In this document: positions 1 through 46,102 of the stretch, in pieces | How positions within the stretch are numbered: position 1 is the stretch's first letter | How the letters are laid out: the number at the start of each line of letters is the position of its first letter | NCBI GenBank assembly: GCA_963726195.1 | Contig: CAVSBO010000005.1 | Coordinates: forward strand, 168,646-232,645 | Length of the DNA: 64,000 nucleotides | DNA from: Candidatus Thorarchaeota archaeon | Lineage (GTDB): Archaea > Asgardarchaeota > Thorarchaeia > Thorarchaeales > Thorarchaeaceae | Direction: 5' to 3' | The notes under the pieces: model-generated | The model's database searches: none | Told to the model about the DNA's origin: nothing | The model's input: only the letters and a program-made list of their open reading frames with translations | Translations under genes and position numbers: made by a program

Positions 1-272
1 CAGCAGAGCTGAAAAAGACACTCGAACGTACTTCGATTGATGCTTGCCACTACTTGGATGTGCCCGATTTCGCAAGGATGGACTACCGCATGAATGATAA
101 GGCCGAGGTGTACTTCTTGGAGATTAACCCCTTGCCGGGAATGGATTTCGACATGGACCACAACGACTTTTCGTTCTTTCCATATATGGGTATGAAGGCG
201 GGATACTCCTACGACGAGCTCGTCCGTCGGCTCCTCGAATCTGCTTGCTACAGATACGGGCTGAAACTCTGA
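1..272 (+). CDS. ATP-grasp ligase, D-Ala-D-Ala ligase-like, C-terminal part (truncated by window edge)
   Basis: Frame is open from base 3. ARMDYRM...YFLEINPLPGM matches the Ddl-family RxDF...FLEVNxxPG motif. Confidence 0.8.
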   Translation, partial: AELKKTLERTSIDACHYLDVPDFARMDYRMNDKAEVYFLEINPLPGMDFDMDHNDFSFFPYMGMKAGYSYDELVRRLLESACYRYGLKL

Positions 273-345
273 ATGTCATGACATTCGACTTGGAAACGAA
301 GACGTGCTCCGAGGCCTCCCAATGGCTGACAGGGCAGGTGATTAG

Positions 346-909
346 ATGAAAAAGGCCGACGAATCACAGCTGATATGGAGAGGGCTCGAAGCAAATCTCT
401 CGAAGCTCCTTCAGAAGCAGGTGAAGCTCGTTTTTCCTTCGAAGTGGGACAAGACTTGCCATTCGTGGTACGAAGCGCTGGAGCAAGAGGCATTCAGGGA
501 AGAGCTGAGATATACTCCAGAGGAGGTCTTCGAAAGAATAGACAAGCCCGACCTTCTTCTCTTCTTTGCGATGAGCGGACAGCAGCCGTATGCAGTCTTG
601 CTCAGCTATACGATGGAGGGAGAATGGGAGAAGACTCTCTATGTTGATACGATTGCGGTGAGGGAGCAGGGAAAGGGCATTGGTCGAGCAATCATGAACG
701 CTATCATCGAATACGGTCATCTCAAGAACTACAGGGCGATAGTACTCGATACAGAGGAACAGAACGAAAAAGGTCTGCCTCTAAGAAGATTCTACGAGAA
801 ACTCGGATTCGTCTTAGATGATCTTGATGAACGCGGCAATCTGACCATGAGAACTTCGACTACATCCAGAACCACAATCCTAAGACGAACCAAAGCAGGG
901 CTGGTATAA
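346..909 (+). CDS. GNAT family N-acetyltransferase
   Basis: Acetyl-CoA motif QGKGIGRAIM and late motif RRFYEKLGF. The last ~20 aa may be frameshifted. Confidence 0.85.
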   Translation: MKKADESQLIWRGLEANLSKLLQKQVKLVFPSKWDKTCHSWYEALEQEAFREELRYTPEEVFERIDKPDLLLFFAMSGQQPYAVLLSYTMEGEWEKTLYVDTIAVREQGKGIGRAIMNAIIEYGHLKNYRAIVLDTEEQNEKGLPLRRFYEKLGFVLDDLDERGNLTMRTSTTSRTTILRRTKAGLV

Positions 910-913
910 TCAG

Positions 914-1989
914 CTACGTGAAGTCTCTTCCGGTCAGTATTGCAACGAACGTGCCCTTAATGGTCACTCTGGTGTCGGCCAAGTCGTGGAGCACAGCGAG
1001 AGTGCTTGCTGATGCAGGCAGTACGTTCAGACCTTCTTCTTCACGAAGCAGTCTGGAGAACTCTTGCATTCTTGTATCTGATGCATAATCGGCGAAGCCA
1101 TTCGTCTCATATATCGCATCAAGAGCTTCCTGCCCATCGAACGAGTGCCAGTTAGTTAACGGTTCGTTGAAGCGCGTCTCCTTGACCTCATTCCGCTCTA
1201 GGTCGAGTACTGTCCTGCTCTTCATAAGGAATGATTTGACTATCGGATTCCCACGTCTGGTACTTGTCGCGACCATTCTTGGAAGTTCATCGATTTTGTG
1301 GCCCTCATAGAGCTTTTGAACCCATGATAGACGCCTGCAAGTGTTGTGCCGTTCCCAACTGGACAGAAGACGTAATCCGGTTCTCGCCTCATGTCTCTGT
1401 ATATCTCGTATGCGATCTCCGCGTACGCTTCCAGAGAAACCTCTCTAACCCCATCAAGACCCGGGTTCGCATCGAACCATGAGCCTTTCTCCTTGCATAC
1501 TTTTGACGATAGAGCAACAACGTCTTCGTACTGGCCTTCCTCGAAATGAATCTCAGCGCCAGCGTCTGTCATTCGCTTTAGTCTGTCCTCAGGAAGATGG
1601 TAACCCGCAGGAATGTAGATGTGTGCAGGAATCTCGCAGAGTTTCGCGGCCCATCCAAGTGCGGTGCCAAAATTACCGCAGCTCCGGCGGCTATCTGCAG
1701 CTGCGCCTTGAGACTTGGCGAGAGATGCAAGTGCTAATGCAATCCGATCCTTCTGTGTACCAGTGGGATTGTTACCCTCAAACTTCAGAAAGAGGCGCTC
1801 GACTCCCGAGAAACGAGCGAGGTTGCGTGACTCGACAAAGGTTGTGGAGCCGACAAAATCCTTCCATTTTATCTTGACGCCATTCCTCTTGGGAACGGCC
1901 GCCTCAGGTGCCCCTTCATCACGGGGCGCATGTTTCCCTTCCTCGCCTGACTCCTTCGCCATCTTCTTTCCTGAGCCCAGCTTTTCCAT
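914..1989 (-). CDS. PLP-dependent fold-type II enzyme, threonine synthase-like (frameshifted near 1315; ORFs 1240-1989 and 914-1276)
   Basis: Motifs KFEGNNPTGTQKDR (PLP lysine), SCGNFG, PVGNGTT, and EEGLNVLPASAS...ILTGR in the downstream frame. Confidence 0.8.
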
Positions 1990-2227
1990 TCGGTACTTGC
2001 TTAGCGAGCTCGCGTCACCGCGAGCATCATCATAATTTACTATGTCTCAGTATGACAATCTGGCGGCATCACTATATATCTTATTCTATAACAACTCACA
2101 TCATTCGAACTCAGCTTTCTCTCTGTGAAGGCATCACAGAATGCAGCAGCAACGCAAAGCCGCCTCGTCATCTCGAAACGATATCGAACCGCTTCCACTC
2201 GAAAGGTATGCACAAAGCAATCAATCT

Positions 2228-3511
2228 CTAACCAAGTCTCTTCATCCTTGCAGAACATTCAACTGCCCTCGCATTATCGCCGTTCTGTTTGAAGAGAGAC
2301 GCCGCGATTTGCCATGTTCTCTTCGCTTCAGCGTTTCTTTTTAGCTTCTCAAGTATCAATCCACGTTGGTAGAGATGGTTAGGGTTGTTCGGTTCAACAG
2401 AGAAGGCGGCATCAAAATCAGTCAATGCCTCTTCGAGTTTGCCCATAGAGACCTTCAGAAGACCCCGTTGATGCGCGAACACAGGGTTCGAGGCGTCCAG
2501 ACCCAATGCTGTATCGAAGCAGTTCATGGCAGCAGCCGGCTCGCCCAACATCTGTAGCGCTTGGCCCCACTTGCTCCAAGCATCACCGCTATTGCCGTCC
2601 GCATTGGTCGCTTTTTCATAGGCGTCCGCCGCCACCACGTAGGACTTCATCATTCTATGAGCGTCGCCCTTACGAACCCACAGGCTAGCGTCATCGAGCT
2701 TGAGTTGGACGGCTCTGTCATAGTAGTAGAGCGCTCTGTCATACTCTTTGCGGGCATAATAAGCATCGCCCAGATAGGCTAGGGCGTAGGGTTGCTCGCG
2801 GTCGACATCAGTTGCCTTCTGAAGTGTGTCTATTGCGTTTTCATTCTGTCCTGCTAAGAAGTATGTCTTCCCAAGTTCTGTCAGGGCAGAAATCGAAATG
2901 GGGTTCGCTTTCAGAGCACTATTGAACCATGCTATGGCTCCTGCTCGATCACCCTTGCTCGCGAGATATACTCCCTTCGCGACCATTGCTTTGTCAAAAG
3001 CCGGGTTCTGTTTCAATGCATGTTCGATGCTTTGGGCGGCCTTATCGTTGTCTCCGAGCTCCAGCTGAGCCATTGCCAGGTCCACCAGTGCGTTGACATT
3101 GTCAGGCTGGATTGCTAGCGCGCTTGATACGCGGCCGATAGCGTCCTTTGGTTTGCGATCCATGAGATACGCCGAACCCATGTTTATCAGTGCATCAACC
3201 TGCTTGCCGTCTATCGTCAGAGCGAGTTCGTACAGCCTGAGTGCGTTCGGGAGGTCACCTTCTTTGAAATGAAGGTTTGCTAGTCCGGTCAGCAAGCCAG
3301 GAAGCCTCGTATCGCTCTTGGCTGATTCCATAACTCCCTTCAGCTCTTCTTCAAGCTCCTCTAGGGCCCTTCGCTCCCTTGAATCGACGGTCGGCTTTTT
3401 CACCTTATCAGGGTCCACTAAGCCTTTCGGCCCTATTGCCTCCAGCTTCGTCTCAATTGCAGAGAGGATTTCATCTGCCTGCACAGCCCTTTGCCCCTCG
3501 AGTATTCCCAT
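2228..3511 (-). CDS. Tetratricopeptide repeat protein (~10 TPRs)
   Basis: Repeated ~34-aa units such as ALAYLGDAYYARKEYDRALYYYDRAVQL. Confidence 0.9.
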   Translation of the reverse strand: MGILEGQRAVQADEILSAIETKLEAIGPKGLVDPDKVKKPTVDSRERRALEELEEELKGVMESAKSDTRLPGLLTGLANLHFKEGDLPNALRLYELALTIDGKQVDALINMGSAYLMDRKPKDAIGRVSSALAIQPDNVNALVDLAMAQLELGDNDKAAQSIEHALKQNPAFDKAMVAKGVYLASKGDRAGAIAWFNSALKANPISISALTELGKTYFLAGQNENAIDTLQKATDVDREQPYALAYLGDAYYARKEYDRALYYYDRAVQLKLDDASLWVRKGDAHRMMKSYVVAADAYEKATNADGNSGDAWSKWGQALQMLGEPAAAMNCFDTALGLDASNPVFAHQRGLLKVSMGKLEEALTDFDAAFSVEPNNPNHLYQRGLILEKLKRNAEAKRTWQIAASLFKQNGDNARAVECSARMKRLG

Positions 3512-36549: not shown

Positions 36550-36701
36550 AGCCTACATCACTACCTACGGGAGAGAAGCGACTGGCCCGGCTCCCTTGGT
36601 ATGCTTATGTATCTTATTATTAGCCCACATCTCTAGGCTATCATTCTTGGCCAATCTGGGAATCAGGCCTTGAGGACTGCTTCAGTCAGTTTTCTCAGGC
36701 A

Positions 36702-37076
36702 CTAGGATGACGGGGGCATGACAACAATCTGGACGCTCGTTATCGTCTTGCCCTCCTTGTCGCTCGCGTCAAAAGTATCGAACGCCATCTCATACCTGAA
36801 GCGTTGTTCGCGCACCTTGAGCTCGTGTGCGACTCGAACGGCGAGACCGATACCCTTGAATCCGTATCCCCTAATCGCGACGATTCTCTTGTCATTCCTC
36901 ACAAGACCATGTACTGTCAAAGCTACCTTCGGTACGTTGACCTTCTCAGCTGTAGGTGAAATCTCCAAAAGGACGTACTCGCTTGTGGGAAAGACGCTAA
37001 TATCCTCGTTCAGAGTGATGCCGATTATCCTGTCTCCAAGTCTCAGCTGTTCAGGTATTCTCTCTTGGAGGGACAT
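36702..37076 (-). CDS. Divergent Alba-superfamily nucleic-acid-binding protein
   Basis: IVAIRGYGFKGIGLAVRVAHEL and DKEGKTITSVQIVV parallel the Alba motifs VxIKARGRAISRAVDVAE and GRxxxVSxIEIxL. Confidence 0.55.
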   Translation of the reverse strand: MSLQERIPEQLRLGDRIIGITLNEDISVFPTSEYVLLEISPTAEKVNVPKVALTVHGLVRNDKRIVAIRGYGFKGIGLAVRVAHELKVREQRFRYEMAFDTFDASDKEGKTITSVQIVVMPPSS

Positions 37077-37217
37077 GATTGGGAGCGTTCCAGCAGGGGT
37101 CTAAAGTACTTGCCGTTTGTTGCCACTCGAATGCCATGCTTAATAGCCTGTCTCGCAATCATTAAATCTCGGGAGCCACGAATTGCGGCAGAAGCTCTGA
37201 AAGGAAGAAGTTCCACA

Positions 37218-38210
37218 ATGGAGTCCAAGAAACCCCTTGCAGTCATTCTTGCGATTTTTGCGGTGACATCTCTGGCAGCCGTTGCGATTTGGTACCCTAG
37301 ACCTGCGGCAGGAGTTAACATTAGGATAGGTTACCTCAGTCAGGATTTGCATCAGCTGGCTCTAAGAGTCGCCATCGAGAAGGGATGGTTTGCAGAAGAG
37401 GGTATCAACGTTACACTCTTTCAGTACCAGAATGGTGCCTATGAGATGGATGGTTTTCTTGGCGGGCAAATCGACGTTGGGTACTTGGGCATAGCACCTG
37501 CACTTACCAAGAGCATTAACCAAGGAATCAATATCACCGTTTTAGCGACCGCCAATCTTGAGGGTTCGTCAATCATGGCGCTTAAGTCCGAGTATGATGC
37601 CGGACGAATAACTAACATGACCGGTCTTGTCAATAAGACAATCCTCGAGCCGGGGCCATCAAGTGTTCAGACCTTCCTCCTCAGACTAGCATTGAACCAG
37701 TCTGGGCTCTCGGTTTCGCAGGTAACTCTTGAGCAAGCTACTCCTCAAAACATGGGCATGTCACTTACAGCGGACAAGCCTGCGTTCATCGCTTGGGAAC
37801 CATACTGTGCGCTGGCGCAGTACAACGGTCAGGCTGTTCCAATCTTGTCCTCACATGACATATGGGCGAGGCATCCGTGCTGCGTACTCGCAGTGTCGAA
37901 CGCATTTCTCAAGGCAAGTCCCGACATCGTACAGAAGATCGTTGATATTCACAAACGGGCTGAACAGTGGATTGTGGCAAATCCAGTTGACGCAGTAAAC
38001 GTTGCCGTGCAGTGGCTGCAGATTGCGACCACACCGGTACAGAACGCTTTCAATGGTATCATATACGAGTACGCCCTGAACCGCACCGCTTTCGAGAAGT
38101 ACCTGAGCTTCCTCATTAGTCAGCACTATGCTACCATGGATCCCTCTGGAATCAGCGCTTTCTTGAATCGTTTCATTAATAGCACCTTCATTGAACATAC
38201 TACTACTTAG
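37218..38210 (+). CDS. NitT/TauT/SsuA-family ABC substrate-binding protein
   Basis: N-terminal TM anchor, IRIGYL, GQIDVGYLGIAP, AWEPY, HPCCVL. Confidence 0.88.
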   Translation: MESKKPLAVILAIFAVTSLAAVAIWYPRPAAGVNIRIGYLSQDLHQLALRVAIEKGWFAEEGINVTLFQYQNGAYEMDGFLGGQIDVGYLGIAPALTKSINQGINITVLATANLEGSSIMALKSEYDAGRITNMTGLVNKTILEPGPSSVQTFLLRLALNQSGLSVSQVTLEQATPQNMGMSLTADKPAFIAWEPYCALAQYNGQAVPILSSHDIWARHPCCVLAVSNAFLKASPDIVQKIVDIHKRAEQWIVANPVDAVNVAVQWLQIATTPVQNAFNGIIYEYALNRTAFEKYLSFLISQHYATMDPSGISAFLNRFINSTFIEHTTT

Positions 38211-38305
38211 TGTCACGTCCAAAAAGGAGAACACAATCAGTGGAGCGGCTTTGTGAAGCTATCAAGTGCTCCAATTCCGAAACATGATTGAGCGGGTGAA
38301 GAGAC

Positions 38306-39103
38306 GTGGATGGCTCGCACAGAAAGGGACACAAAGTGAGATTTTCTGACATTCTGCTCAAGGCGGTGCTTCCCCTCCTAATCCTTCTGGCCATCTGGCA
38401 GTTCATCGCATATGTTTCTCAAGGCATAAATCTCTTCGACATTACATCTTCCTTCATTAAGCTGGTTGTCCAAGGCGATGCGGATGGAACCACGCTTGCC
38501 CAGCATACCGCAATCAGTATGCTCCGGGTCACGTTGGGGTTTGGCGCTGCCGCCGTCACGGCAATTCCACTCGGCGTCATCGTCGGCCGCTACCGTGCTC
38601 TGAACATGGTTCTGGGTCCCGTCGTTGATGCCATGCGCCCTATTCCTCCTATTGCGTGGATTCCTCTCTCGATTCTGATGTTCAGGACGAATATCCTTGG
38701 TGCTCAGGTTTTCATAATCTGGGTGGGTGCATTCTTTCCCATATTGCTCAACACTATTGCTGGAGTGAAGAGAACTAGCATCGTTCATCTTGAAGTAGCT
38801 CAGACATTCGGAGCGAAGGAAGGGCAGGTGCTTTCGAAAGTCATCCTGCCATCCGCTGCGCCAGAGATAATGGCTGGTCTTCGAATCGGCTTCGGTATTG
38901 GCTGGATGTGTCTCGTTGCAGCTGAAATGATAGGAGGAGGTCTTGGTCTCGGTTATCTCGTAATCCTCGCAGAGCAACTTGGTAGGACCGGCGAAACGAT
39001 TTCCGCCATGCTCATGATTGGTTTCATTGGTTTCGCAATCAGCTACGTACTACTTCGACTTGAGAAATCGCTGCTCAGATGGAGAGTGGAGGTTGCCATC
39101 TAG
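38306..39103 (+). CDS. NitT/TauT-family ABC permease
   Basis: RPIPPIAWIPL, EAA-like loop VAQTFGA, LVAAEM. Confidence 0.92.
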   Translation: MDGSHRKGHKVRFSDILLKAVLPLLILLAIWQFIAYVSQGINLFDITSSFIKLVVQGDADGTTLAQHTAISMLRVTLGFGAAAVTAIPLGVIVGRYRALNMVLGPVVDAMRPIPPIAWIPLSILMFRTNILGAQVFIIWVGAFFPILLNTIAGVKRTSIVHLEVAQTFGAKEGQVLSKVILPSAAPEIMAGLRIGFGIGWMCLVAAEMIGGGLGLGYLVILAEQLGRTGETISAMLMIGFIGFAISYVLLRLEKSLLRWRVEVAI

Positions 39104-39900
39104 GGTCTTCTTATGTGCATTGCTTTTTCTTGCTCTACTCTAAGTAGCTCTAGTATTCTCGCCCGGTAGGAGAGACACTCTGTTGAGGTTCTGTCCCGTG
39201 GCCTAGGCAGATCGATAACGAACTCTTCGATTATGTGAGCAGGTATGTTGCTCAAAAGTATAACCCGGTCCGACATGAATACGGCTTCGTCAACGTTGTG
39301 GGACACGAATATGATTGTGGAACCTGTCTCTTGCCATATTCTGAGGAACTCCTCCTGCAAGTAGTTCCTCGTCTGAGCGTCAAGATTTGAAAAGCACTCG
39401 TCAGAGACTAGAATGTCGGGAGACGTAACGAGGCTGCGTGCCATTTCGGTTTTTCGAGCTTGCCCTCCTGAGATTTCGTGAGGCAGATTCTTTTCGAATT
39501 CTTTCATTCCGACTAGGCTCAGCATTTGGTCAACTAGGCGCTTCCTCTCCTCAGGATTATGATGTTCGACTTCAAGGCCAAATTCAATGTTCTTTCGGAC
39601 GGTTCTCCAAGGAAAGAGGCTTTCTTGCTGAAAGATGAAGCCAACGCGATGATGTCCAGTCGCGGCTGGGACGCCATCAAACAAGACTTCGCCACTATCA
39701 GCTTGGAGGAGTCCCGCTATGATCTTCAAAAGAGTAGTCTTACCGCACCCCGACGGGCCCAGTATACTCAGGAATTCCCCCTTCTGAACGTCAAACGAAA
39801 TCTCGTCTAGAACCTTGGTCTCTTCCAGGTTGTCGCTGAAGTATGACTTCTTGAGATTTCGGACCGAGAGTTTCGGCAATTCCACACCAGCCACAATCAT
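39100..39900 (-). CDS. NitT/TauT-family ABC ATP-binding protein
   Basis: GPSGCGKTT, LFPWRTV, ISGGQ, SDECFSNLDAQTR, SHNVDEA. Confidence 0.92.
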   Translation of the reverse strand: MIVAGVELPKLSVRNLKKSYFSDNLEETKVLDEISFDVQKGEFLSILGPSGCGKTTLLKIIAGLLQADSGEVLFDGVPAATGHHRVGFIFQQESLFPWRTVRKNIEFGLEVEHHNPEERKRLVDQMLSLVGMKEFEKNLPHEISGGQARKTEMARSLVTSPDILVSDECFSNLDAQTRNYLQEEFLRIWQETGSTIIFVSHNVDEAVFMSDRVILLSNIPAHIIEEFVIDLPRPRDRTSTECLSYRARILELLRVEQEKAMHIRRP

Positions 39901-40032
39901 GTTGGTCCCGTTAAATAGTGTATTGCAGCATGCGCAAATCCTGCTTCAACCGCGCAAAGTAGAAAAGGACACCAGACGCCCATGATACAATAATCATTCA
40001 GTTCGCTTTGATGTTCAGCCGCTCTAAGCGAA

Positions 40033-42399
40033 GTGCCAGCCGCGAATGGAAGGCGAAATCAGTTGGATTCACCAAGAGTTCTGTTTGAGATCAAGGATGA
40101 CGTGAGCACAAGTGCTATCGCTGTGGGGGACCTTGCAGGCTCGCCACTGCCTGAGTTATGCACTGGTGGTCGTGATGGAGTGCTCCGCGTCTATAGCGCA
40201 GACAAGACTGGGGTTGAGTTCCTAGCCCAGCACAACGTCGAGGGAAGCATCCTATCAATTGAAATCGCCGACGCAAACAACGACAACCAAAACGAACTAG
40301 TAGTTGGCAGAAGTCTGGGTCCTCACGACGTTGCTGGCGAAGCCGGGACACTCCAGATTTATCGAATTACGTCCGCGAATGCATTCGAGCTTCTGGCTGA
40401 ATACCCTGTCGACCGCTTTGTGACAACTGTTCACGTTACGGATGTCACGGGTGACGAGAAGAACAAGATACTCGCGGGCGGGAGCGACTCCACTTTGAGA
40501 GTCTTTGAAATGGACGGCGAGAATAACCTGCGTGAGTTTGCTCGTTACCAACTTGAAGACATGCCAATCACGATTGGCACCTGTGACGTCGATGGTGACG
40601 AAATCGACGAGATAGTCACAGGTAACCGCGACAAGACGCTACGCGTGTTCAGGGTTAAGGACAACTCCATCGAGCAGATGGACGTCATGAATTTGCCCAG
40701 CCCTGTCGTGTCCATTGCTTCCGGTGACTTGCTTGGAGATCGCAAGATGGAGCTTGCAGTTGTGACCTACGATGGATCAATCAGGGTCTATCGCAACGAA
40801 GAGAACAAGCTTGAGCTCTTTTCTATGCTTGAAAAGGTCAAGGCTCTCTCTGTGAGGATTGAGGAGCTGAATGCTGACCACTTGGATGAATTGGTTGTTG
40901 CTACTTCAGACGCAAGAATCGTCTTCTATAATGTCCAAGCGGCGGAGCTGCAAGAATTGGCAGTAGTCAACATTGGAACTAAGATTCTTGCAATCAGCGT
41001 GGGTGATGCTAACGGGAATGGCCGCAAGGAGGTCTTGGTCGGCGTATCCAACGCCCCATTGAAGGTGGTCGATGGTCTGTACACCATCATACCGAAGTTT
41101 GAGGTCAGTACTGAGGCAATGGCTGGCAGCCAACTCACCGGCATGTTCACGATAACAAACGTTTCAGACAAGCAGGTGAGTGGAATCTCAGGGAAGGTTT
41201 ACTGGTTCCCGAAGAGCGACATGGAAATCACTCCTCAGCAACTTCGGTTTGACTTGGAACCGCATGAGACAAAAGCGACTGAGTTGCAGCTCACGCCCAA
41301 TGTTGAAGGAACTATCATCGTGAGACCCATAGTTATGATGTGGACTGATATCACTGGCCAAGTTAGACAGGCCACCACGCCTGAGACACCGATACTGGTA
41401 CAGGGCGGTAGTGCAATTGCAGTACCTGTTGCTAGCACTCGGATTGTCGCCGCTTCTGAGCCTGAGCCTGTGGCACCTGAAATTGAGGATGAGTTATCGT
41501 ATGAACCGATGGTTGGCACCGGTTTTGGTGCGGTACACGCAGCCGAAGCTGAGATGCCATCAGATGAGGCGGCTGTTTCAGCTAGCACCGAAGAGACGCT
41601 CAAAGCTGCAGAAGAGCTTCTGGAGAGGATCTTCGACGAGTCTCCAAGACAGGTGGAACTGAGCAGAATAACGACCGAGTCTATTAGTGAAGAAGAGACA
41701 GAAGAACTGACGGTGGCGCCCTCCGTTGCAGGCCTGAATGAGAGTGCGATTGTTGCAGAGATACGTGGGCGCAAAGCGAAGCCGCCGAAACCAGGTATGA
41801 CATCGGATGGCTATAGCTATCTCTTCAAGACAATGGTGATTGGCGAGGGTGCTGTCGGCAAGACCGCCCTTGTAAGCCGATTTACCACTGGGCAATTTGA
41901 GAAGGATTACAAGACTACCATAGGTTCGCAGTTTGCAGTGAAGCTGACATACATCTCGCCGACTGATTCTGAGTATGCCGTAGGAATCAAGATTCAGGCG
42001 TGGGATGTTGCTGGGCAGGCGCGCTTCAAGGCCGTTCGCAAGATGTACTACAGCGGGGCAGCTGGGGTTATTCTCGTCTTCGATGTCACCCGACGGAGAT
42101 CATTCACTGAGCTCGTCAAATGGGTCGAGGAATCTGATGATTCAGTTGGCGGACGTGTTCCGATGGTCTGTGTTGGCAACAAGATTGACTTGCCAGACAG
42201 GGCGGTTCCCGGTGATGAGGCCAAGCAATGGGCCGAGTCGCAAGGGTTCATCTACATGGAGAGCAGCGCCAAGACCGGAGAAGGAGTGGCCGATATGTTC
42301 TCAGTGCTGGCAGAGCTTATGTGGACAGAGACCCGCAAAATGACTGATTCAAAGAAGTCTGGCGATAGCAAGAAGAGTGGAGAAGGCAAGAAGCGCTAG
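40033..42399 (+). CDS. Fusion of FG-GAP/BBS2-like beta-propeller, Ig-like domain, acidic linker and Rab-like small GTPase
   Basis: About seven blades (e.g. CDVDGDEIDEIVTGNRDKTLRVF). GTPase motifs GEGAVGKT, TIG, WDVAGQ, NKID, ESSAK. RabF-like motifs IGSQF, KIQAW, RFKAVR, YYSGA, LVFDVT. No signal peptide. Confidence 0.9.
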   Translation: MPAANGRRNQLDSPRVLFEIKDDVSTSAIAVGDLAGSPLPELCTGGRDGVLRVYSADKTGVEFLAQHNVEGSILSIEIADANNDNQNELVVGRSLGPHDVAGEAGTLQIYRITSANAFELLAEYPVDRFVTTVHVTDVTGDEKNKILAGGSDSTLRVFEMDGENNLREFARYQLEDMPITIGTCDVDGDEIDEIVTGNRDKTLRVFRVKDNSIEQMDVMNLPSPVVSIASGDLLGDRKMELAVVTYDGSIRVYRNEENKLELFSMLEKVKALSVRIEELNADHLDELVVATSDARIVFYNVQAAELQELAVVNIGTKILAISVGDANGNGRKEVLVGVSNAPLKVVDGLYTIIPKFEVSTEAMAGSQLTGMFTITNVSDKQVSGISGKVYWFPKSDMEITPQQLRFDLEPHETKATELQLTPNVEGTIIVRPIVMMWTDITGQVRQATTPETPILVQGGSAIAVPVASTRIVAASEPEPVAPEIEDELSYEPMVGTGFGAVHAAEAEMPSDEAAVSASTEETLKAAEELLERIFDESPRQVELSRITTESISEEETEELTVAPSVAGLNESAIVAEIRGRKAKPPKPGMTSDGYSYLFKTMVIGEGAVGKTALVSRFTTGQFEKDYKTTIGSQFAVKLTYISPTDSEYAVGIKIQAWDVAGQARFKAVRKMYYSGAAGVILVFDVTRRRSFTELVKWVEESDDSVGGRVPMVCVGNKIDLPDRAVPGDEAKQWAESQGFIYMESSAKTGEGVADMFSVLAELMWTETRKMTDSKKSGDSKKSGEGKKR

Positions 42400-42422
42400 T
42401 CGCTTGCTCTGCACGAAAGTCC

Positions 42423-43022
42423 TCAGTGTTTCACGGCTTCGAACCCGGCGTCGAACGCGGTCAGGTTGGCTTCCTTAGGCGTCATGAGCTTGCCCACGGA
42501 CTCCCTGATTTGAGCATCTTTGATTGGCAGCTTCTCGACTGCAGCTCCTGCACCCAGCACGAAGGAGTTCAGGGCGCGTGAACCGCTTGATTCCTGAAAA
42601 GCCCTCGACAACTCAACAGGATGAATTGCGGAACATATGGAGGATAGAGCTTCGATAATGTCATCTACGGACGGATACTTGCTCTGACCCGATAGAGACT
42701 GCAAGGTCTGTACGGGACTGAGACTCACAATAATAGCTGTGGTTCTTCCAGCGTATGATACCGCAGCTCGCAGAGATTCCATGGGTTCGAGCCCTAGTAT
42801 TAAGTCTGCCATGCCTGCCGGTATCAGGGGTCCGACATCATCAGTTGCTATTCGAACGTGAGTGAAGACCGTGCCGCCCCTACGAGATGCGCCAAAGGTT
42901 TCTCCTATGACCGGCCTGTACCCTGCTGAGAATGCAGCGTCTGCTAGTACTCGGCCGGAGAGAAGGTTACCCTGTCCCCCTACTCCAGCTATGATCACAT
43001 TACAGGGTCTTTGCAGATTCAT
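42423..43022 (-). CDS. iorB: Indolepyruvate:ferredoxin oxidoreductase beta subunit
   Basis: AGVGGQG, GETFGASRRGGTVFTHVR, LEPMESLR. Confidence 0.9.
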   Translation of the reverse strand: MNLQRPCNVIIAGVGGQGNLLSGRVLADAAFSAGYRPVIGETFGASRRGGTVFTHVRIATDDVGPLIPAGMADLILGLEPMESLRAAVSYAGRTTAIIVSLSPVQTLQSLSGQSKYPSVDDIIEALSSICSAIHPVELSRAFQESSGSRALNSFVLGAGAAVEKLPIKDAQIRESVGKLMTPKEANLTAFDAGFEAVKH

Positions 43023-44897
43023 TCACCCCCGGATATGGCACCATGAGGACAGACGTCGATGCAGGCACCGCAGCGCACACACAGCTCATCAGAGATAATG
43101 GGTAGACCCCGTTCGAGATCCCAGCCGATTGCAGGGCAGCCGTACTGCGAGGCGCAGATTTTGCAGCTCTCACCATGACATAGTTGGTCGTTGATTACAA
43201 CAGGCCCCTCGCTTTTCTTGGTCGCACCGTGACGCTCCTCCTCGAGCCTGCAAACGCTGTTCAGGATGAGGACATTAAGTCCGCGTTTCTCTACAGTTGA
43301 CCCGATGAGATTCATCACAGACTCGATATCTATGGCGTCACCTGTCGCCATGAAGTCGGGCTCGACTGCCTCGACCAGCTTGGCGATACTGACCCTTCGG
43401 TGGCCCTTCTCCTGCAACGCTGATCCCGGATGTGTCTGAAAACCGGTCATTGCAGTGGTTCCGTTGTCGAGTACTAGGAATGTGATGTCAGCATTCTTGT
43501 GCCTAGCGTTGACGAGAGCGGGCATACAAGCGTGAAAGAAAGTAGAGTCTCCAGCAACAGCGACAACTCGCGAGTCAAAGCCGAAACGACCCAGTTGTCC
43601 CAGCCCGCACGCTGTTCCGATACCTGAGCCCATAGCCTGCATCGTCTGCATTGCCTCATCGTAGAACACGCCCATCGAATAGCAGCCTATGTCTCCAGCC
43701 ACCACAAGCCGGTCGCCGAGTCTTTTCCTTATTTTGCGGAGTACCCAGTATACGTTCCTGTGTGTACATCCTGCGCAGAACGTAAGAGGTCGAGGGATGA
43801 GCAACCTTCTCTGCCTTCTCGATTGCACTTAGTTCTGGCCGATGGCCTTTGCTGCTTCTTACCAGTCGCGTGTCCTTGAGCGCATGAAGGACGGTGTCAA
43901 CGTTCATCTCGCCCCAACTTGGAATGGCGCCTGTCCGCTTGCCTAGGAACTGTGGGAGTGTCCCTCGTGCGAGGCTAGTAGCCAGTGCACGCGTTTCGTC
44001 TTCGATGAATGGGTCGGTCTCCTCAACAAATAGGACCTTCTTGGCTTTGAAGAGGGCCTTAGTAACCATGTGCATTGGGAGGGGATTAGTAGTAGTCAGT
44101 CCTAGGAATCCTATGTCAGAGGCTTCAGCAAGAGCAAGTGCTTCCTTAGCATAAAGACCGCAGATTCCTGAAGCGATCACGAGACCCTCCATATTCTTTG
44201 GTAGACTGTGCACATTCAGAGGCGATTTCTCAAACTCCGCCGCGATGAATGTGAGCTTGTCGAGAAGTTCTTTGTGCTTTACGGATGGTTGGGGCACGTT
44301 GTAGAGACCTTTTGGCAGAGGCCTCACAACGACTGGCGGTCGTTGAGATATGTCTCCAATCGTTACCACTCCTCGAGAGTGGCTTAGGCGTGTCGTGCTT
44401 CTAACAAGAACGGGTATCTCGTACTTCCTAGAGATATCGAGAGCGCTAAGCATGACGTCCCTTGCCTGCTGACAGCTACTTGGTTCCAGCATCGGGAGCA
44501 TTGCGGCCTTGGAGTAGAACCTTGAATCCTGTTCATTGCTCGAACTGTGCCCTTGGGGGTCATCACAGACAACAATGACTAAACCACCTTTTCCCGTGCC
44601 CGACAGGTTTACATTCAGCAGAAAGTCAGCCGCCACATTCAGGCCCAGCGACTTCATGGGGCAGATTGCCGGCACCCCTGCCCAGCTTGCCCCGGCCGCC
44701 GCCTCGAGAGCAACCTTCTCATTGGCGCTCCACTCCACATAGAGGTTCAGCTTCTCGGCGCTGTCCATTATGCTCTCGGTTATCTCCGTAGAAGGAGTCC
44801 CCGGATAGGAAGCGCAGAAAGTTACTCCTGCCTCCATAGCCCCTCGAGCCATGGCCTCATTGCCGCTCATGACGATGGAAGAACCGGAATTCGCCAT
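43019..44897 (-). CDS. iorA: Indolepyruvate:ferredoxin oxidoreductase alpha subunit (frameshift near 43805)
   Basis: GNEAMARG, YPGTPSTE, NEKVALE; then FCAGCTHR, GDIGCY, GDSTFFH, DNGTTAMTG and a C-terminal ferredoxin CVRCGACIDVCP. Confidence 0.9.
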
Positions 44898-45018
44898 CTG
44901 CTCAAGCTCTGTCCAGTGAGGTTGAGTACCAAAGAAAACGATTTCGGAATGTCTCGGATTGGCAGACACACGACGGAAACAATGAAAAGCCGAAGTCCGC
45001 GTCCACACTTGAGTCAAG

Positions 45019-46102
45019 ATGACAGAACCGGGCGAGCTCGGGGCCTCGAGGATCAGCTCAGTATTCTCAATTTCCCACGAGAAGGATGTCGATGGTTTGC
45101 TCTCTGCAGTAATCGTCTCGCGATACGCCAATTCCAAGAACCTCAAGTATGGCTTTACTCTCACTGACTACGGTCAGTTCGAGGCAGTGTTCCCGAGAGC
45201 CGCGAGCATGAGGAATAGTCTAATCGTTGTCACTGATCTAGGCCTCGATGACCATTCGATTGACATCGTCACAGCTTCTCTGAGCAAGGCCGTAGCCCAA
45301 GGTTGTCGCGTAGTCTGGCTCGATCATCATGACTGGACAGACAGGGCGGTGAAATCCATTCTAACGCTCGGAGGCGGCCCTCGACTAACAGTTAATCATG
45401 AGTTCTGTGCCTCCGAGATAGCGTTCAAGGTTCTCATGCCTAGAGACGATATGTCGAGAGAACTAGCAAGGATAGCTCATGACACTGACTTCAACATCAG
45501 AGAAATCGAGTCAGCGAATTCGTTGACTGATGCGATGTCTCTCATCAGGTTTGGAGTAGTCGACAAGGGTCAGGATTTCACAGAAGCAATAACCCCGATT
45601 CTGAAGAGCTTGGCTGAAGATGGAATAGCAGGCGTATGGGATGAGAGTGCAAAGAGGTTCCGGGACAATCTGCTAAACCAGCGAGTCGACAGCTGATAGG
45701 AAAGAAAAGATCAAGAAAATGAGGAAAGCGCTTGCTGGACGTTCCGACCTAGAGGTGCGTGGCTGTCTTGTCAGGATTGTCGAGATACCAAACGGTGTGA
45801 CTACCACAGACATGGGCACATGGGCCGCAGACGAGCGAAACCTCAAGGTGGGCGACGAGCAGTTACGGGTCGCCGACATGCTTGTCACGTTAAGCCCAAA
45901 CGGATTACTTGGCTTTAGGCGTGGCCAAGACAGGATTCTGTGCAATGTTGCAGCAAGGTTGTTCAAGGGAGGCGGTCATCCCTATGCGGCCGGAGGTGAA
46001 TACGGTATGTATCACGACTTCCAGGCCGCGTGCGATGACATCTTTACGACGCTTTCGACAACTAAGGACTGGATTTCGGCAGAAGAAAACGGTCTGTCGT
46101 AG
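45019..46102 (+). CDS. DHH/DHHA1 family phosphoesterase (frameshift near 45695)
   Basis: HEKDVDG, TDLG, LDHH, GGGHPYAAG. Confidence 0.88.

What the first reader, a model, noticed from the sequence alone, without database searches (positions are those of the whole stretch)
40033..42399. Beta-propeller, Ig and Rab in one polypeptide: a BBSome/coat-like module fused to its GTPase
Seen: one uninterrupted 788-aa ORF with no signal peptide. It has ~7 blades of the DxxGDxxxE(L/I)xxGxxDxxLRVF type (~40070-41075), an Ig-like sandwich (~41080-41400), an acidic linker and a GTPase with intact G1-G5 and five RabF-like motifs (~41815-42330). Known: BBS2-type BBSome subunits have a propeller with DFDGDGxxELLVGSED-like blades followed by a GAE Ig domain, and the BBSome works with small GTPases (Arl6, Rab8). 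ITFG2 and kaptin of KICSTOR have similar propellers. Inference: a Rosetta-stone fusion linking a proto-coat/adaptor fold to a Rab-like switch before eukaryogenesis.
Basis: partly seen in the sequence, partly recalled or inferred. Interest (0 to 1): 0.8.

Follow-up and report, generated by a model that had tools for sequence, protein, structure and literature searches.

The report
Thorarchaeal propeller-tethered Rab-like GTPase
This is a real, strongly conserved gene of Thorarchaeota (Asgard archaea) that ties a complete Rab-type GTP switch by a long acidic linker to a cytoplasmic seven-bladed propeller and an Ig-like domain. Its likeness to the eukaryotic BBSome and KICSTOR propellers is a likeness of propeller class and does not show shared ancestry.

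Summary
Window 40033-42399 (+) is one open frame of 788 aa; the start is more likely TTG 40063, giving 778 aa. It encodes a 7-bladed FG-GAP-class beta-propeller, an Ig-like sandwich, an acidic disordered linker of about 135 aa with three conserved motifs, and an intact Rab-like GTPase. There is no signal peptide, no TM helix and no prenylation Cys.

The fusion is not an assembly artefact. It is single-copy and colinear in 80 of 85 genomes of the same GTDB family, in a sister family, and in more than 120 independent database clusters.

BBS2 and ITFG2 are the top structural matches, and ITFG2 is the top profile match. Two unrelated FG-GAP-class propellers hit ITFG2 and BBS2 as well or better, and WD40 propellers lie within 2 Z units. 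No BBSome-type platform or helical domains are present.

Across eight genera the gene sits alone, between opposite-strand ABC-transporter and oxidoreductase genes.

My best reading is a self-contained GTP switch tethered to a protein-binding platform. The mechanism is inferred, not shown.

I found no paper describing the fusion. This scan has already reported orthologues in other genomes several times.

The parts
40033..42399 (+). Whole ORF as listed: GTG start, 788 aa plus stop. The likely true start is TTG at 40063 (778 aa).
   Evidence: Orthologue N-termini align to residue 11. A GGAAGG lies about 10 nt upstream of the TTG (read by eye).
40078..41070 (+). Seven-bladed FG-GAP-class beta-propeller (residues ~16-346). 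Each blade carries a D-x-x-x-D-x-x-x-E loop followed by a G..D..LRV(F/Y)-type strand.
41086..41403 (+). Ig-like beta-sandwich (residues ~352-457); subtype undetermined.
   Evidence: Strands at model positions 341-446. Only non-significant sequence hits: ASH 0.049, fn3_6 0.055, Transglut_C 0.07. In the divergent orthologue P0124: Transglut_C 1e-4 and GAE_BBS1 0.17.
41404..41808 (+). Acidic, disordered linker (residues ~458-592, net charge -17) with three conserved islands: GTGF (495-498; nt ~41515-41526), an amphipathic helix of the type (S/T)LKAAE.LL(D/E).(L/I)F (518-534; nt ~41584-41634), and ES..V.EIR.R..KPP.PG (570-588; nt ~41740-41796).
   Evidence: pLDDT below 50 for 465-567. Invariant or nearly invariant residues T496 G497 F498, A526 E527 L529 L530 D531 L533 F534, S571 I577 R580 P587 in 28 orthologues. 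Composition.
41809..42327 (+). Rab-like small GTPase domain (residues ~593-765) with intact G1-G5, the catalytic Gln (Q662) and five RabF-like motifs.
   Evidence: Pfam Ras 1.3e-45, Roc 3e-29. NCBIfam small_GTP 6e-25. Best solved relatives are 'Thorarchaeota Rab' 7EZB at 1.7e-44, then Rab14, Rab11, Rab25 and Rab2. Mean column identity is 80% among orthologues.
42328..42396 (+). Basic C-terminal tail (DSKKSG twice, then GEGKKR) without Cys. Only a KK pair is conserved in the family.

Best explanation
The gene encodes a cytoplasmic, single-chain 'switch plus platform' protein specific to Thorarchaeales.

Its parts:
- The C-terminal domain is a catalytically competent Rab-like GTPase. It arose from the lineage's own Rab-like paralogues.
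- A ~135-residue acidic, disordered linker carries three conserved short motifs.
- The linker joins the GTPase to a seven-bladed FG-GAP-class propeller and an Ig-like sandwich. These two domains are protein-protein interaction modules.

Most likely mechanism (inferred, not shown): the G domain cycles between GTP and GDP states. Its switch regions, or the conserved linker motifs, bind or release the propeller/Ig platform or an outside partner. Nucleotide state would then decide whether the platform is available and where it sits. The weakly basic tail may add electrostatic affinity for membranes.

The propeller belongs to the same broad repeat class as BBS1/2/7/9, ITFG2 and integrin alpha. It is not shown to be their specific relative.
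For: Shown:
- The ORF is intact and its domains are as described.
- All GTPase motifs are intact, and the best hits are Thor-Rab 7EZB and eukaryotic Rabs.
- There is no signal peptide, no TM helix and no prenylation Cys.
- The protein is a single-copy orthologue with the same length and order of parts in 80 of 85 genomes of the same GTDB family. In the sister-family genome G311 it is split only by contig ends. More than 120 database clusters at 60-83% identity have the same architecture, almost all labelled Candidatus Thorarchaeota.
- Purifying selection is visible on every part: mean column identity is 78% for propeller plus Ig and 80% for the G domain, with three conserved islands in an otherwise variable linker.
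- The fused G domains form one clade that includes the 42%-identical member P0124. A stand-alone own-genome paralogue is the nearest neighbour, with weak support.
- The gene stands alone between opposite-strand genes in eight genera, so its partners are not encoded beside it.

Inferred: the switch-and-platform mechanism. It rests on established knowledge that small GTPases act through nucleotide-dependent binding via their switch regions, and that propellers and Ig domains are binding platforms.
Against: - No direct evidence exists for any binding event, for membrane association or for GTP hydrolysis.
- The full-length AlphaFold model gives no confident placement of the G domain relative to the propeller (pTM 0.56).
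- The basic tail is poorly conserved apart from a KK pair.
- Tran et al. 2024 (PMC10933270) saw no membrane targeting of Asgard GTPases expressed in HeLa cells.
- No neighbouring gene hints at a pathway.
Confidence: 0.5

Rival explanations
1. First reader's reading. The propeller-Ig module is a specific pre-eukaryotic relative of BBSome (BBS1/2/7/9) or KICSTOR (ITFG2/KPTN) subunits. The fusion would record an ancestral working pair of a proto-coat or adaptor with its small GTPase.
For: - BBS2, BBS9, BBS7, BBS1 and ITFG2 head the Foldseek list.
- BBS2 and ITFG2 are ranks 1 and 2 of 48,161 chains by VIA-align.
- ITFG2 is the only significant profile hit in the PDB, at 1e-6.
- Pfam BBS7, BBS2_Mid, Itfg2 and PHTB1_N all score above their gathering cut-offs.
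- The order propeller-then-sandwich resembles BBS1.
- A preprint lists one Asgard-eukaryote-only structural cluster labelled BBS7/ITFG2 (10.64898/2026.10.28.762692).
- Established knowledge: ARL6-GTP binds the BBS1 propeller.
Against: - The structural margin over WD40 propellers is only 1-2 Z units.
- The BBS2 and BBS7 profile E-values are no better than those for RACK1 or a bacterial FG-GAP protein.
- Unrelated FG-GAP-class propellers reach ITFG2 at 5e-7 and 2e-8, and BBS2 at 8e-7.
- The nearest sequence relatives outside the family are giant FG-GAP_3 proteins.
- There are no platform, helical or coiled-coil domains, and a GAE identity is unproven.
- The fused GTPase is Rab-like, not Arf/Arl-like.
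- The fusion is confined to one order of Asgard archaea.
Confidence: 0.1
2. A cytosolic signalling scaffold unrelated to membranes, working like ROCO or other prokaryotic multidomain Ras-like GTPases. The G domain would control assembly or activity of a soluble complex built on the propeller, for example in cytoskeleton or protein-turnover control.
For: - Pfam Roc matches at 3e-29.
- There is no lipid anchor or TM segment.
- Other Asgard genomes join the same class of propeller to winged-helix, PCI, DDRGK or UFL1-like modules, which points to soluble scaffolds.
- Liu et al. (10.1101/2020.10.19.343400) describe extensive lineage-specific domain shuffling of Asgard signature proteins.
Against: - No COR domain, kinase or other output domain is present.
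- The best G-domain hits are Rabs, not Roc.
- Nothing here distinguishes this rival from the best explanation except where the protein acts.
Confidence: 0.25
3. The fusion is an artefact: two genes joined by an indel or a misassembly in this genome.
For: Two neighbouring genes in this window do show frame breaks relative to the closest relative: the oxidoreductase near 43794-43816 and the DHH gene near 45692. This assembly therefore contains indels or pseudogenes.
Against: The same uninterrupted ~760-830-aa frame occurs in over 70 other genomes and more than 120 independent protein clusters from several sources. The alignment is colinear throughout.
Confidence: 0.01

Closest known systems
Thor-Rab (PDB 7EZB/7EZD/7EZE; Tran et al. 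2024, PMC10933270) and the stand-alone Rab-like GTPases of Thorarchaeota
   Same: It is the best solved relative of the G domain (E 1.7e-44). Shared features include GxGAVGKT, DYKxTIGS.FAVK, WD.AGQ.RF and DVTRRR(S/T)F. Neither carries a prenylation Cys.
   Different: Thor-Rab is a ~180-aa single-domain protein. Here the G domain is the C-terminal quarter of a ~780-aa chain and forms its own clade.
BBSome subunits BBS1/BBS2/BBS7/BBS9 (PDB 6VBU, 6VOA, 4V0M)
   Same: - Both have an N-terminal seven-bladed propeller of the FG-GAP class followed by a beta-sandwich.
- Both are cytoplasmic.
- The BBSome is steered by a small GTPase (ARL6) that binds a propeller (established knowledge).
   Different: - This protein has no coiled coil, platform or helical domains.
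- The GTPase is covalently attached and is Rab-like, not Arf-like.
- The sequence affinity is no greater than for generic propellers.
ITFG2 of KICSTOR (PDB 9O5A chain G, 9V6E chain B)
   Different: - ITFG2 is a propeller-only protein that works with KPTN, SZT2 and C12orf66.
- Unrelated prokaryotic FG-GAP-class propellers match it equally well.
- Its partners were not searched for here.
Prokaryotic FG-GAP/VCBS repeat proteins
   Same: They are the nearest non-family sequence relatives (E 1e-32 to 1e-13, 25-30% identity). Both match Pfam FG-GAP_3.
   Different: - Those proteins are mostly very long multi-propeller proteins. I take them to be mostly extracellular, but that was not checked here.
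- This protein is a single cytoplasmic propeller with a weak FG-GAP_3 score (70 bits against 230-435 bits) and no signal peptide.
ROCO proteins (e.g. LRRK2) and Asgard longin- or roadblock-fused Rag-like GTPases
   Same: In both, a Ras-superfamily G domain is built into one chain with repeat or adaptor domains. LRRK2 also carries a C-terminal propeller. Tran et al. 2024 and Liu et al. describe Asgard GTPase fusions with longin and roadblock domains.
   Different: This protein has no COR domain, kinase, longin or roadblock domain. The propeller is N-terminal and joined by a long disordered linker.

Membership tests
Ras superfamily small GTPase | G1-G5 nucleotide-binding motifs and the catalytic Gln in switch II | tested here: met
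   GEGAVGKT, T628/T629, WDVAGQ (Q662), GNKID and SSAK, all invariant in 28-29 orthologues. Pfam Ras 155 bits against a cut-off of 21.6.
Rab family | Five RabF motifs (IGVDF, KLQIW, RFrsiT, YYRGA, LVYDIT; recalled from Pereira-Leal and Seabra 2000) | tested here: inconclusive
   IGSQF, KIQAW, RFKAVR, YYSGA and LVFDVT are present at the expected places, each with one to three substitutions (read by eye). No formal Rab classifier was run.
Rab family | C-terminal Cys motif for geranylgeranylation | tested here: not met
   The last Cys is residue 713 and the tail is basic and Cys-free. No Cys is seen in the tails of any of the 28 orthologues aligned.
Rab family | Closest solved relatives are Rabs rather than Ras, Rho, Arf or Ran | tested here: met
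   After Thor-Rab, the next 59 hits listed are Rab14, 11, 25, 2, 30, 1, Sec4 and Ypt, at 1e-38 to 1e-32.
Rab family | Phylogenetic placement inside the eukaryotic Rab clade | not tested
   No eukaryotic sequences were available by reference. Only own-genome paralogues were put in the tree.
BBSome BBS2/7/9-type subunit | N-terminal seven-bladed propeller | tested here: met
BBSome BBS2/7/9-type subunit | GAE (gamma-adaptin-ear) domain after the propeller | tested here: inconclusive
   An Ig-like sandwich is present. Sequence searches give only non-significant hits (ASH, fn3_6, Transglut_C; GAE_BBS1 E 0.17 in P0124).
BBSome BBS2/7/9-type subunit | Coiled coil, platform and C-terminal helical domains | tested here: not met
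   After the sandwich come a disordered acidic linker and a GTPase.
BBSome / ITFG2 propeller lineage | Sequence affinity that exceeds that of other propellers of the FG-GAP class | tested here: not met
   - Family profile: ITFG2 1e-6, BBS7 4e-3, BBS2 0.04, RACK1 1.4e-3, Vibrio FG-GAP protein 0.04.
- Controls: the propeller of a CHAT-TPR protein hits ITFG2 at 5e-7. An Asgard FG-GAP/PQQ-like propeller hits ITFG2 at 2e-8 and BBS2 at 8e-7.
KICSTOR ITFG2 | Pfam Itfg2 above the gathering score | tested here: met
   30.7 bits against a cut-off of 27, a marginal pass covering about 90 of 330 profile positions.
KICSTOR ITFG2 | Presence of the partners KPTN, SZT2 and C12orf66 | not tested
   No search was made.
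Extracellular FG-GAP/VCBS proteins | Secretion signal or membrane anchor, with tandem propellers | tested here: not met
   There is no hydrophobic N-terminus or TM segment. The protein has a single propeller fused to a GTPase, a domain that normally works in the cytoplasm.
ROCO proteins | COR domain following the Roc GTPase | tested here: not met
   The Roc model matches the G domain (102 bits), but no COR or other domain follows it. The protein ends 26 residues after the G domain.

The most novel reading that the evidence does not exclude
The propeller-Ig module is a true pre-eukaryotic member of the lineage that gave BBS1/2/7/9 and ITFG2/KPTN. Its covalent tie to a Rab-like switch would preserve an ancestral direct partnership between propeller and small GTPase, as ARL6-BBS1 does today. 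That would make this protein a living model of a proto-coat or adaptor with a built-in GTPase.
Probability: 0.1. Interest if true: 0.8.

Novelty: new variant of a known kind. Interest (0 to 1): 0.45.

Why it matters
Asgard archaea carry many small GTPases whose effectors are unknown. Here a Rab-like switch is physically tied to a likely effector platform. The fusion is kept in single copy across a whole order, which gives a defined and expressible test case. It could show what an archaeal Rab-like GTPase binds and whether nucleotide state controls a propeller scaffold.

It does not by itself bear on the origin of the BBSome, KICSTOR or vesicle coats. The controls show that the resemblance belongs to the whole FG-GAP propeller class.

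The architecture appears undescribed in the papers I could search. The only trace is a one-line 'BBS7/ITFG2' cluster in a 2026 preprint, and I could not tell whether that cluster contains this family.

Tried and rejected
- **Complex prediction.** I ran complex prediction with propeller+Ig (A2) against the G domain (A3). The score was 0.01 against a mark of 0.32, which gives no verdict. It is not evidence either way.
- **Ig-like domain.** A family profile against the PDB and a Pfam scan at E up to 10 gave only non-significant hits. The subtype (GAE, ASH, thigh or transglutaminase-like) stays open.
- **Linker 465-600.** It has no Pfam match.
- **Operon partner.** The neighbours are an NMT1-type ABC transporter and 2-oxoacid:ferredoxin oxidoreductase genes on the opposite strand. 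The same block recurs in eight genera. I read this as general synteny rather than a functional link.
- **Mu-homology partner.** Earlier notes of this scan report such a partner in Lokiarchaeia. PF00928 was not found in this 89%-complete genome, but the control genomes did not ring either, so absence is not shown.
- **Propeller-GTPase fusions elsewhere in Asgard.** Ten related propeller proteins from other families carry no Ras domain. This was a sample, not an exhaustive search.
- **Literature.** The term sets were: Asgard+BBSome+GTPase; Thorarchaeota+beta-propeller+small GTPase; Asgard+FG-GAP; Asgard+ITFG2; Asgard+Bardet-Biedl; Thorarchaeota+Rab+WD40+fused. I also searched the text of PMC10933270, PMC12962969 and 10.1101/2020.10.19.343400. 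None describes this fusion. Supplementary tables of the two catalogue papers are not held.
- **Assembly artefact.** Considered and rejected (see rival explanations).
Full report
**What is there**

Window 40033-42399 (+) is a single open frame of 788 codons. The first ten residues are not conserved. All orthologues begin at the residue matching TTG 40063, which is preceded by GGAAGG about 10 nt upstream. The product is therefore probably 778 aa.

- **Propeller and sandwich.** An AlphaFold2 model of residues 12-470, built on 28 orthologues, is confident (mean pLDDT 89.9, pTM 0.83). It shows seven four-stranded blades (residues ~16-346) followed by a beta-sandwich (~352-457).
- **Linker.** In the full-length model, residues 465-567 have pLDDT below 50. 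This stretch is acidic (net charge -17).
- **GTPase.** Residues 599-762 match Pfam Ras at 1.3e-45. G1-G5 and the catalytic Gln are intact and invariant in the family. Five RabF-like motifs are present with small deviations.
- **Closest solved G domains.** The best is the 'Thorarchaeota Rab' 7EZB (1.7e-44), followed only by eukaryotic Rabs.
- **Localisation.** No segment reaches TM hydrophobicity, and no Cys lies in the C-terminal tail. The protein is thus cytoplasmic and cannot be prenylated like a eukaryotic Rab.

**Is it real and conserved?**

Yes.

- More than 120 database clusters of 757-826 aa share 60-83% identity over 94-98% of the length. Almost all are labelled Candidatus Thorarchaeota and are named only 'GTP-binding protein'.
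- In a search of 400 genomes of the phylum, 80 of 85 genomes of the same GTDB family have a match. In most it is the full-length orthologue on an open frame of ~760-830 aa. In several fragmented assemblies it is cut by a contig end, and in a few only a weaker paralogue-level hit was found. Some genomes carry a second, weaker propeller match.
- The one genome of the sister family (G311) has the gene split only by two contig ends.
- A 42%-identical member (P0124) keeps the whole architecture.
- Named records confirm Thorarchaeota. The closest is isolate OWC5 at 83%.
- No orthologue was found in other Asgard families.
- Every part is under selection. Mean column identity is 78% for propeller plus sandwich and 80% for the G domain.
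- The linker varies except for three islands: GTGF, an amphipathic helix of the type SLKAAE.LLD.LF, and ES..V.EIR.R.PKPP.PG just before the G domain.

Two neighbouring genes in this window show frame breaks relative to the closest relative, so this assembly does contain indels or pseudogenes. The target frame is colinear with all orthologues, so the fusion is not an artefact.

**Surroundings**

- The gene lies between a divergently oriented ABC-transporter ATPase and a convergently oriented 2-oxoacid:ferredoxin oxidoreductase gamma subunit.
- The same block, in the same orientations, recurs in eight genera. I read this as general synteny. There is no co-oriented partner gene.
- The genome has about eleven strong stand-alone Ras/Rab-like genes.
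- The fused G domains form one clade. A stand-alone paralogue (L045) is the nearest neighbour, with weak support.

**How close is the propeller to BBSome and KICSTOR propellers?**

Four measures put them first.

- Pfam Beta-prop_BBS7 (59.5 bits), BBS2_Mid (56.9), Itfg2 (30.7) and PHTB1_N (29.7) all pass their cut-offs, next to FG-GAP_3 at 70 bits.
- Foldseek ranks BBS2, BBS9, BBS7, BBS1 and ITFG2 (2e-18 to 8e-14) above integrin alpha chains (3e-13 and weaker).
- The family profile finds ITFG2 at 1e-6.

The affinity is nevertheless not specific.

- In the profile search, BBS7 (4e-3) and BBS2 (0.04) do no better than RACK1 (1.4e-3) or a Vibrio FG-GAP protein (0.04).
- Notes from earlier follow-ups in this scan prompted controls. 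The FG-GAP-class propeller of an unrelated CHAT-TPR protein hits ITFG2 at 5e-7 as a single sequence.
- A 644-aa Asgard FG-GAP/PQQ-like propeller hits ITFG2 at 2e-8 and BBS2 at 8e-7.
- A classical FG-GAP_3 protein hits neither.
- P0001 alone reaches only 3e-3 for ITFG2.
- The nearest sequence relatives outside the family are very long FG-GAP_3 repeat proteins (E 1e-32 to 1e-13).

The likeness is therefore that of a sub-class of FG-GAP propellers, not evidence of special kinship.

The BBSome-type coiled coil, platform and helical domains are absent. The sandwich could not be assigned to the GAE type.

Other Asgard lineages carry the same class of propeller, alone or joined to winged-helix, PCI, DDRGK or UFL1-like modules. 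None of the ten examined is joined to a GTPase.

**How it most likely works**

Shown:
- an intact, conserved Rab-like G domain;
- a conserved cytoplasmic propeller and sandwich;
- a disordered acidic tether with three conserved motifs;
- no lipid anchor.

Inferred:
- The G domain acts as a nucleotide switch.
- Its switch regions, or the linker motifs, engage the protein's own platform or an outside partner in one nucleotide state. GTP or GDP would then control whether the platform is available and where it sits.
- The basic tail might add weak membrane affinity, but only a KK pair is conserved.
- Tran et al. saw no membrane targeting of Asgard GTPases in HeLa cells.

A prediction of propeller/Ig with the G domain gave no verdict.

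**Rivals**

- A specific proto-BBSome or proto-coat relationship: about 0.1.
- A soluble ROCO-like scaffold: about 0.25. It differs from the best reading mainly in where the protein acts.
- An assembly artefact: about 0.01.

**Novelty**

- I found no paper describing this fusion.
- One 2026 preprint lists an Asgard-eukaryote-only structural cluster annotated 'BBS7/ITFG2', which it says matches a published ESP catalogue. It gives no discussion, and I could not see whether that cluster contains this family.
- Liu et al. note in general that Asgard signature proteins show lineage-specific domain shuffling.
- This scan has already reported and followed up orthologues of this gene in several other genomes, with the same conclusion. 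My controls agree with it.

I class it as a new variant of a known kind: an Asgard Rab-like GTPase in an undescribed multidomain setting. It is of moderate interest as a tractable test case for archaeal GTPase effectors.

Noticed in passing
window 43019-45164 (-), break near 43794-43816: The 2-oxoacid:ferredoxin oxidoreductase gene is a single ~620-690-aa frame in eight relatives. Here it is split into overlapping 269-aa and 502-aa ORFs by a frame change. It is either an assembly indel or a pseudogene.
   Followed up: partly
window 45019-46102 (+), break near 45692: The DHH-family gene is a single 363-408-aa frame in relatives. Here it is split into 225-aa and 127-aa ORFs by a +1 frame change.
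   Followed up: partly
window ~36700-46100, compared with L036-L043: A block of about ten genes keeps order and orientation in eight Thorarchaeal genera. The block runs: 132-aa ORF, NMT1-type binding protein, permease, ABC ATPase, the propeller-Rab gene, oxidoreductase subunits, DHH protein.
   Followed up: yes
L054 (G000:C3:522212-525697), ORF 844-2028 (-): A 395-aa open frame has an N-terminal Ras/Rab-like domain (Pfam Ras 128 bits) and ends in a hydrophobic stretch that looks like a TM anchor. It may be a membrane-anchored small GTPase.
   Followed up: no
L029 (G123:C152), ORF 1-2988 (-), open at the contig end: This Asgard protein of at least 996 aa joins an FG-GAP/BBS7-like propeller to DDRGK, PCI and E3_UFM1_ligase-like winged-helix regions. 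The C-terminal part resembles UFMylation machinery.
   Followed up: no
L024 583-2826 (-) and L025 605-2947 (-), with neighbours L024 2894-3925 and L025 2972-4012: In another Asgard family, 748-853-aa proteins carry the same class of propeller plus a conserved C-terminal ...YSRS.PRGY... tail. In two genomes they lie directly downstream of a TFIIB-like gene.
   Followed up: no
L003 (G000:C11:37168-40488), ORF 664-2610 (-): The own genome's other weak propeller match is a 649-aa frame with hydrophobic N- and C-terminal segments. It is probably a surface FG-GAP protein and unrelated to the cytoplasmic fusion.
   Followed up: no
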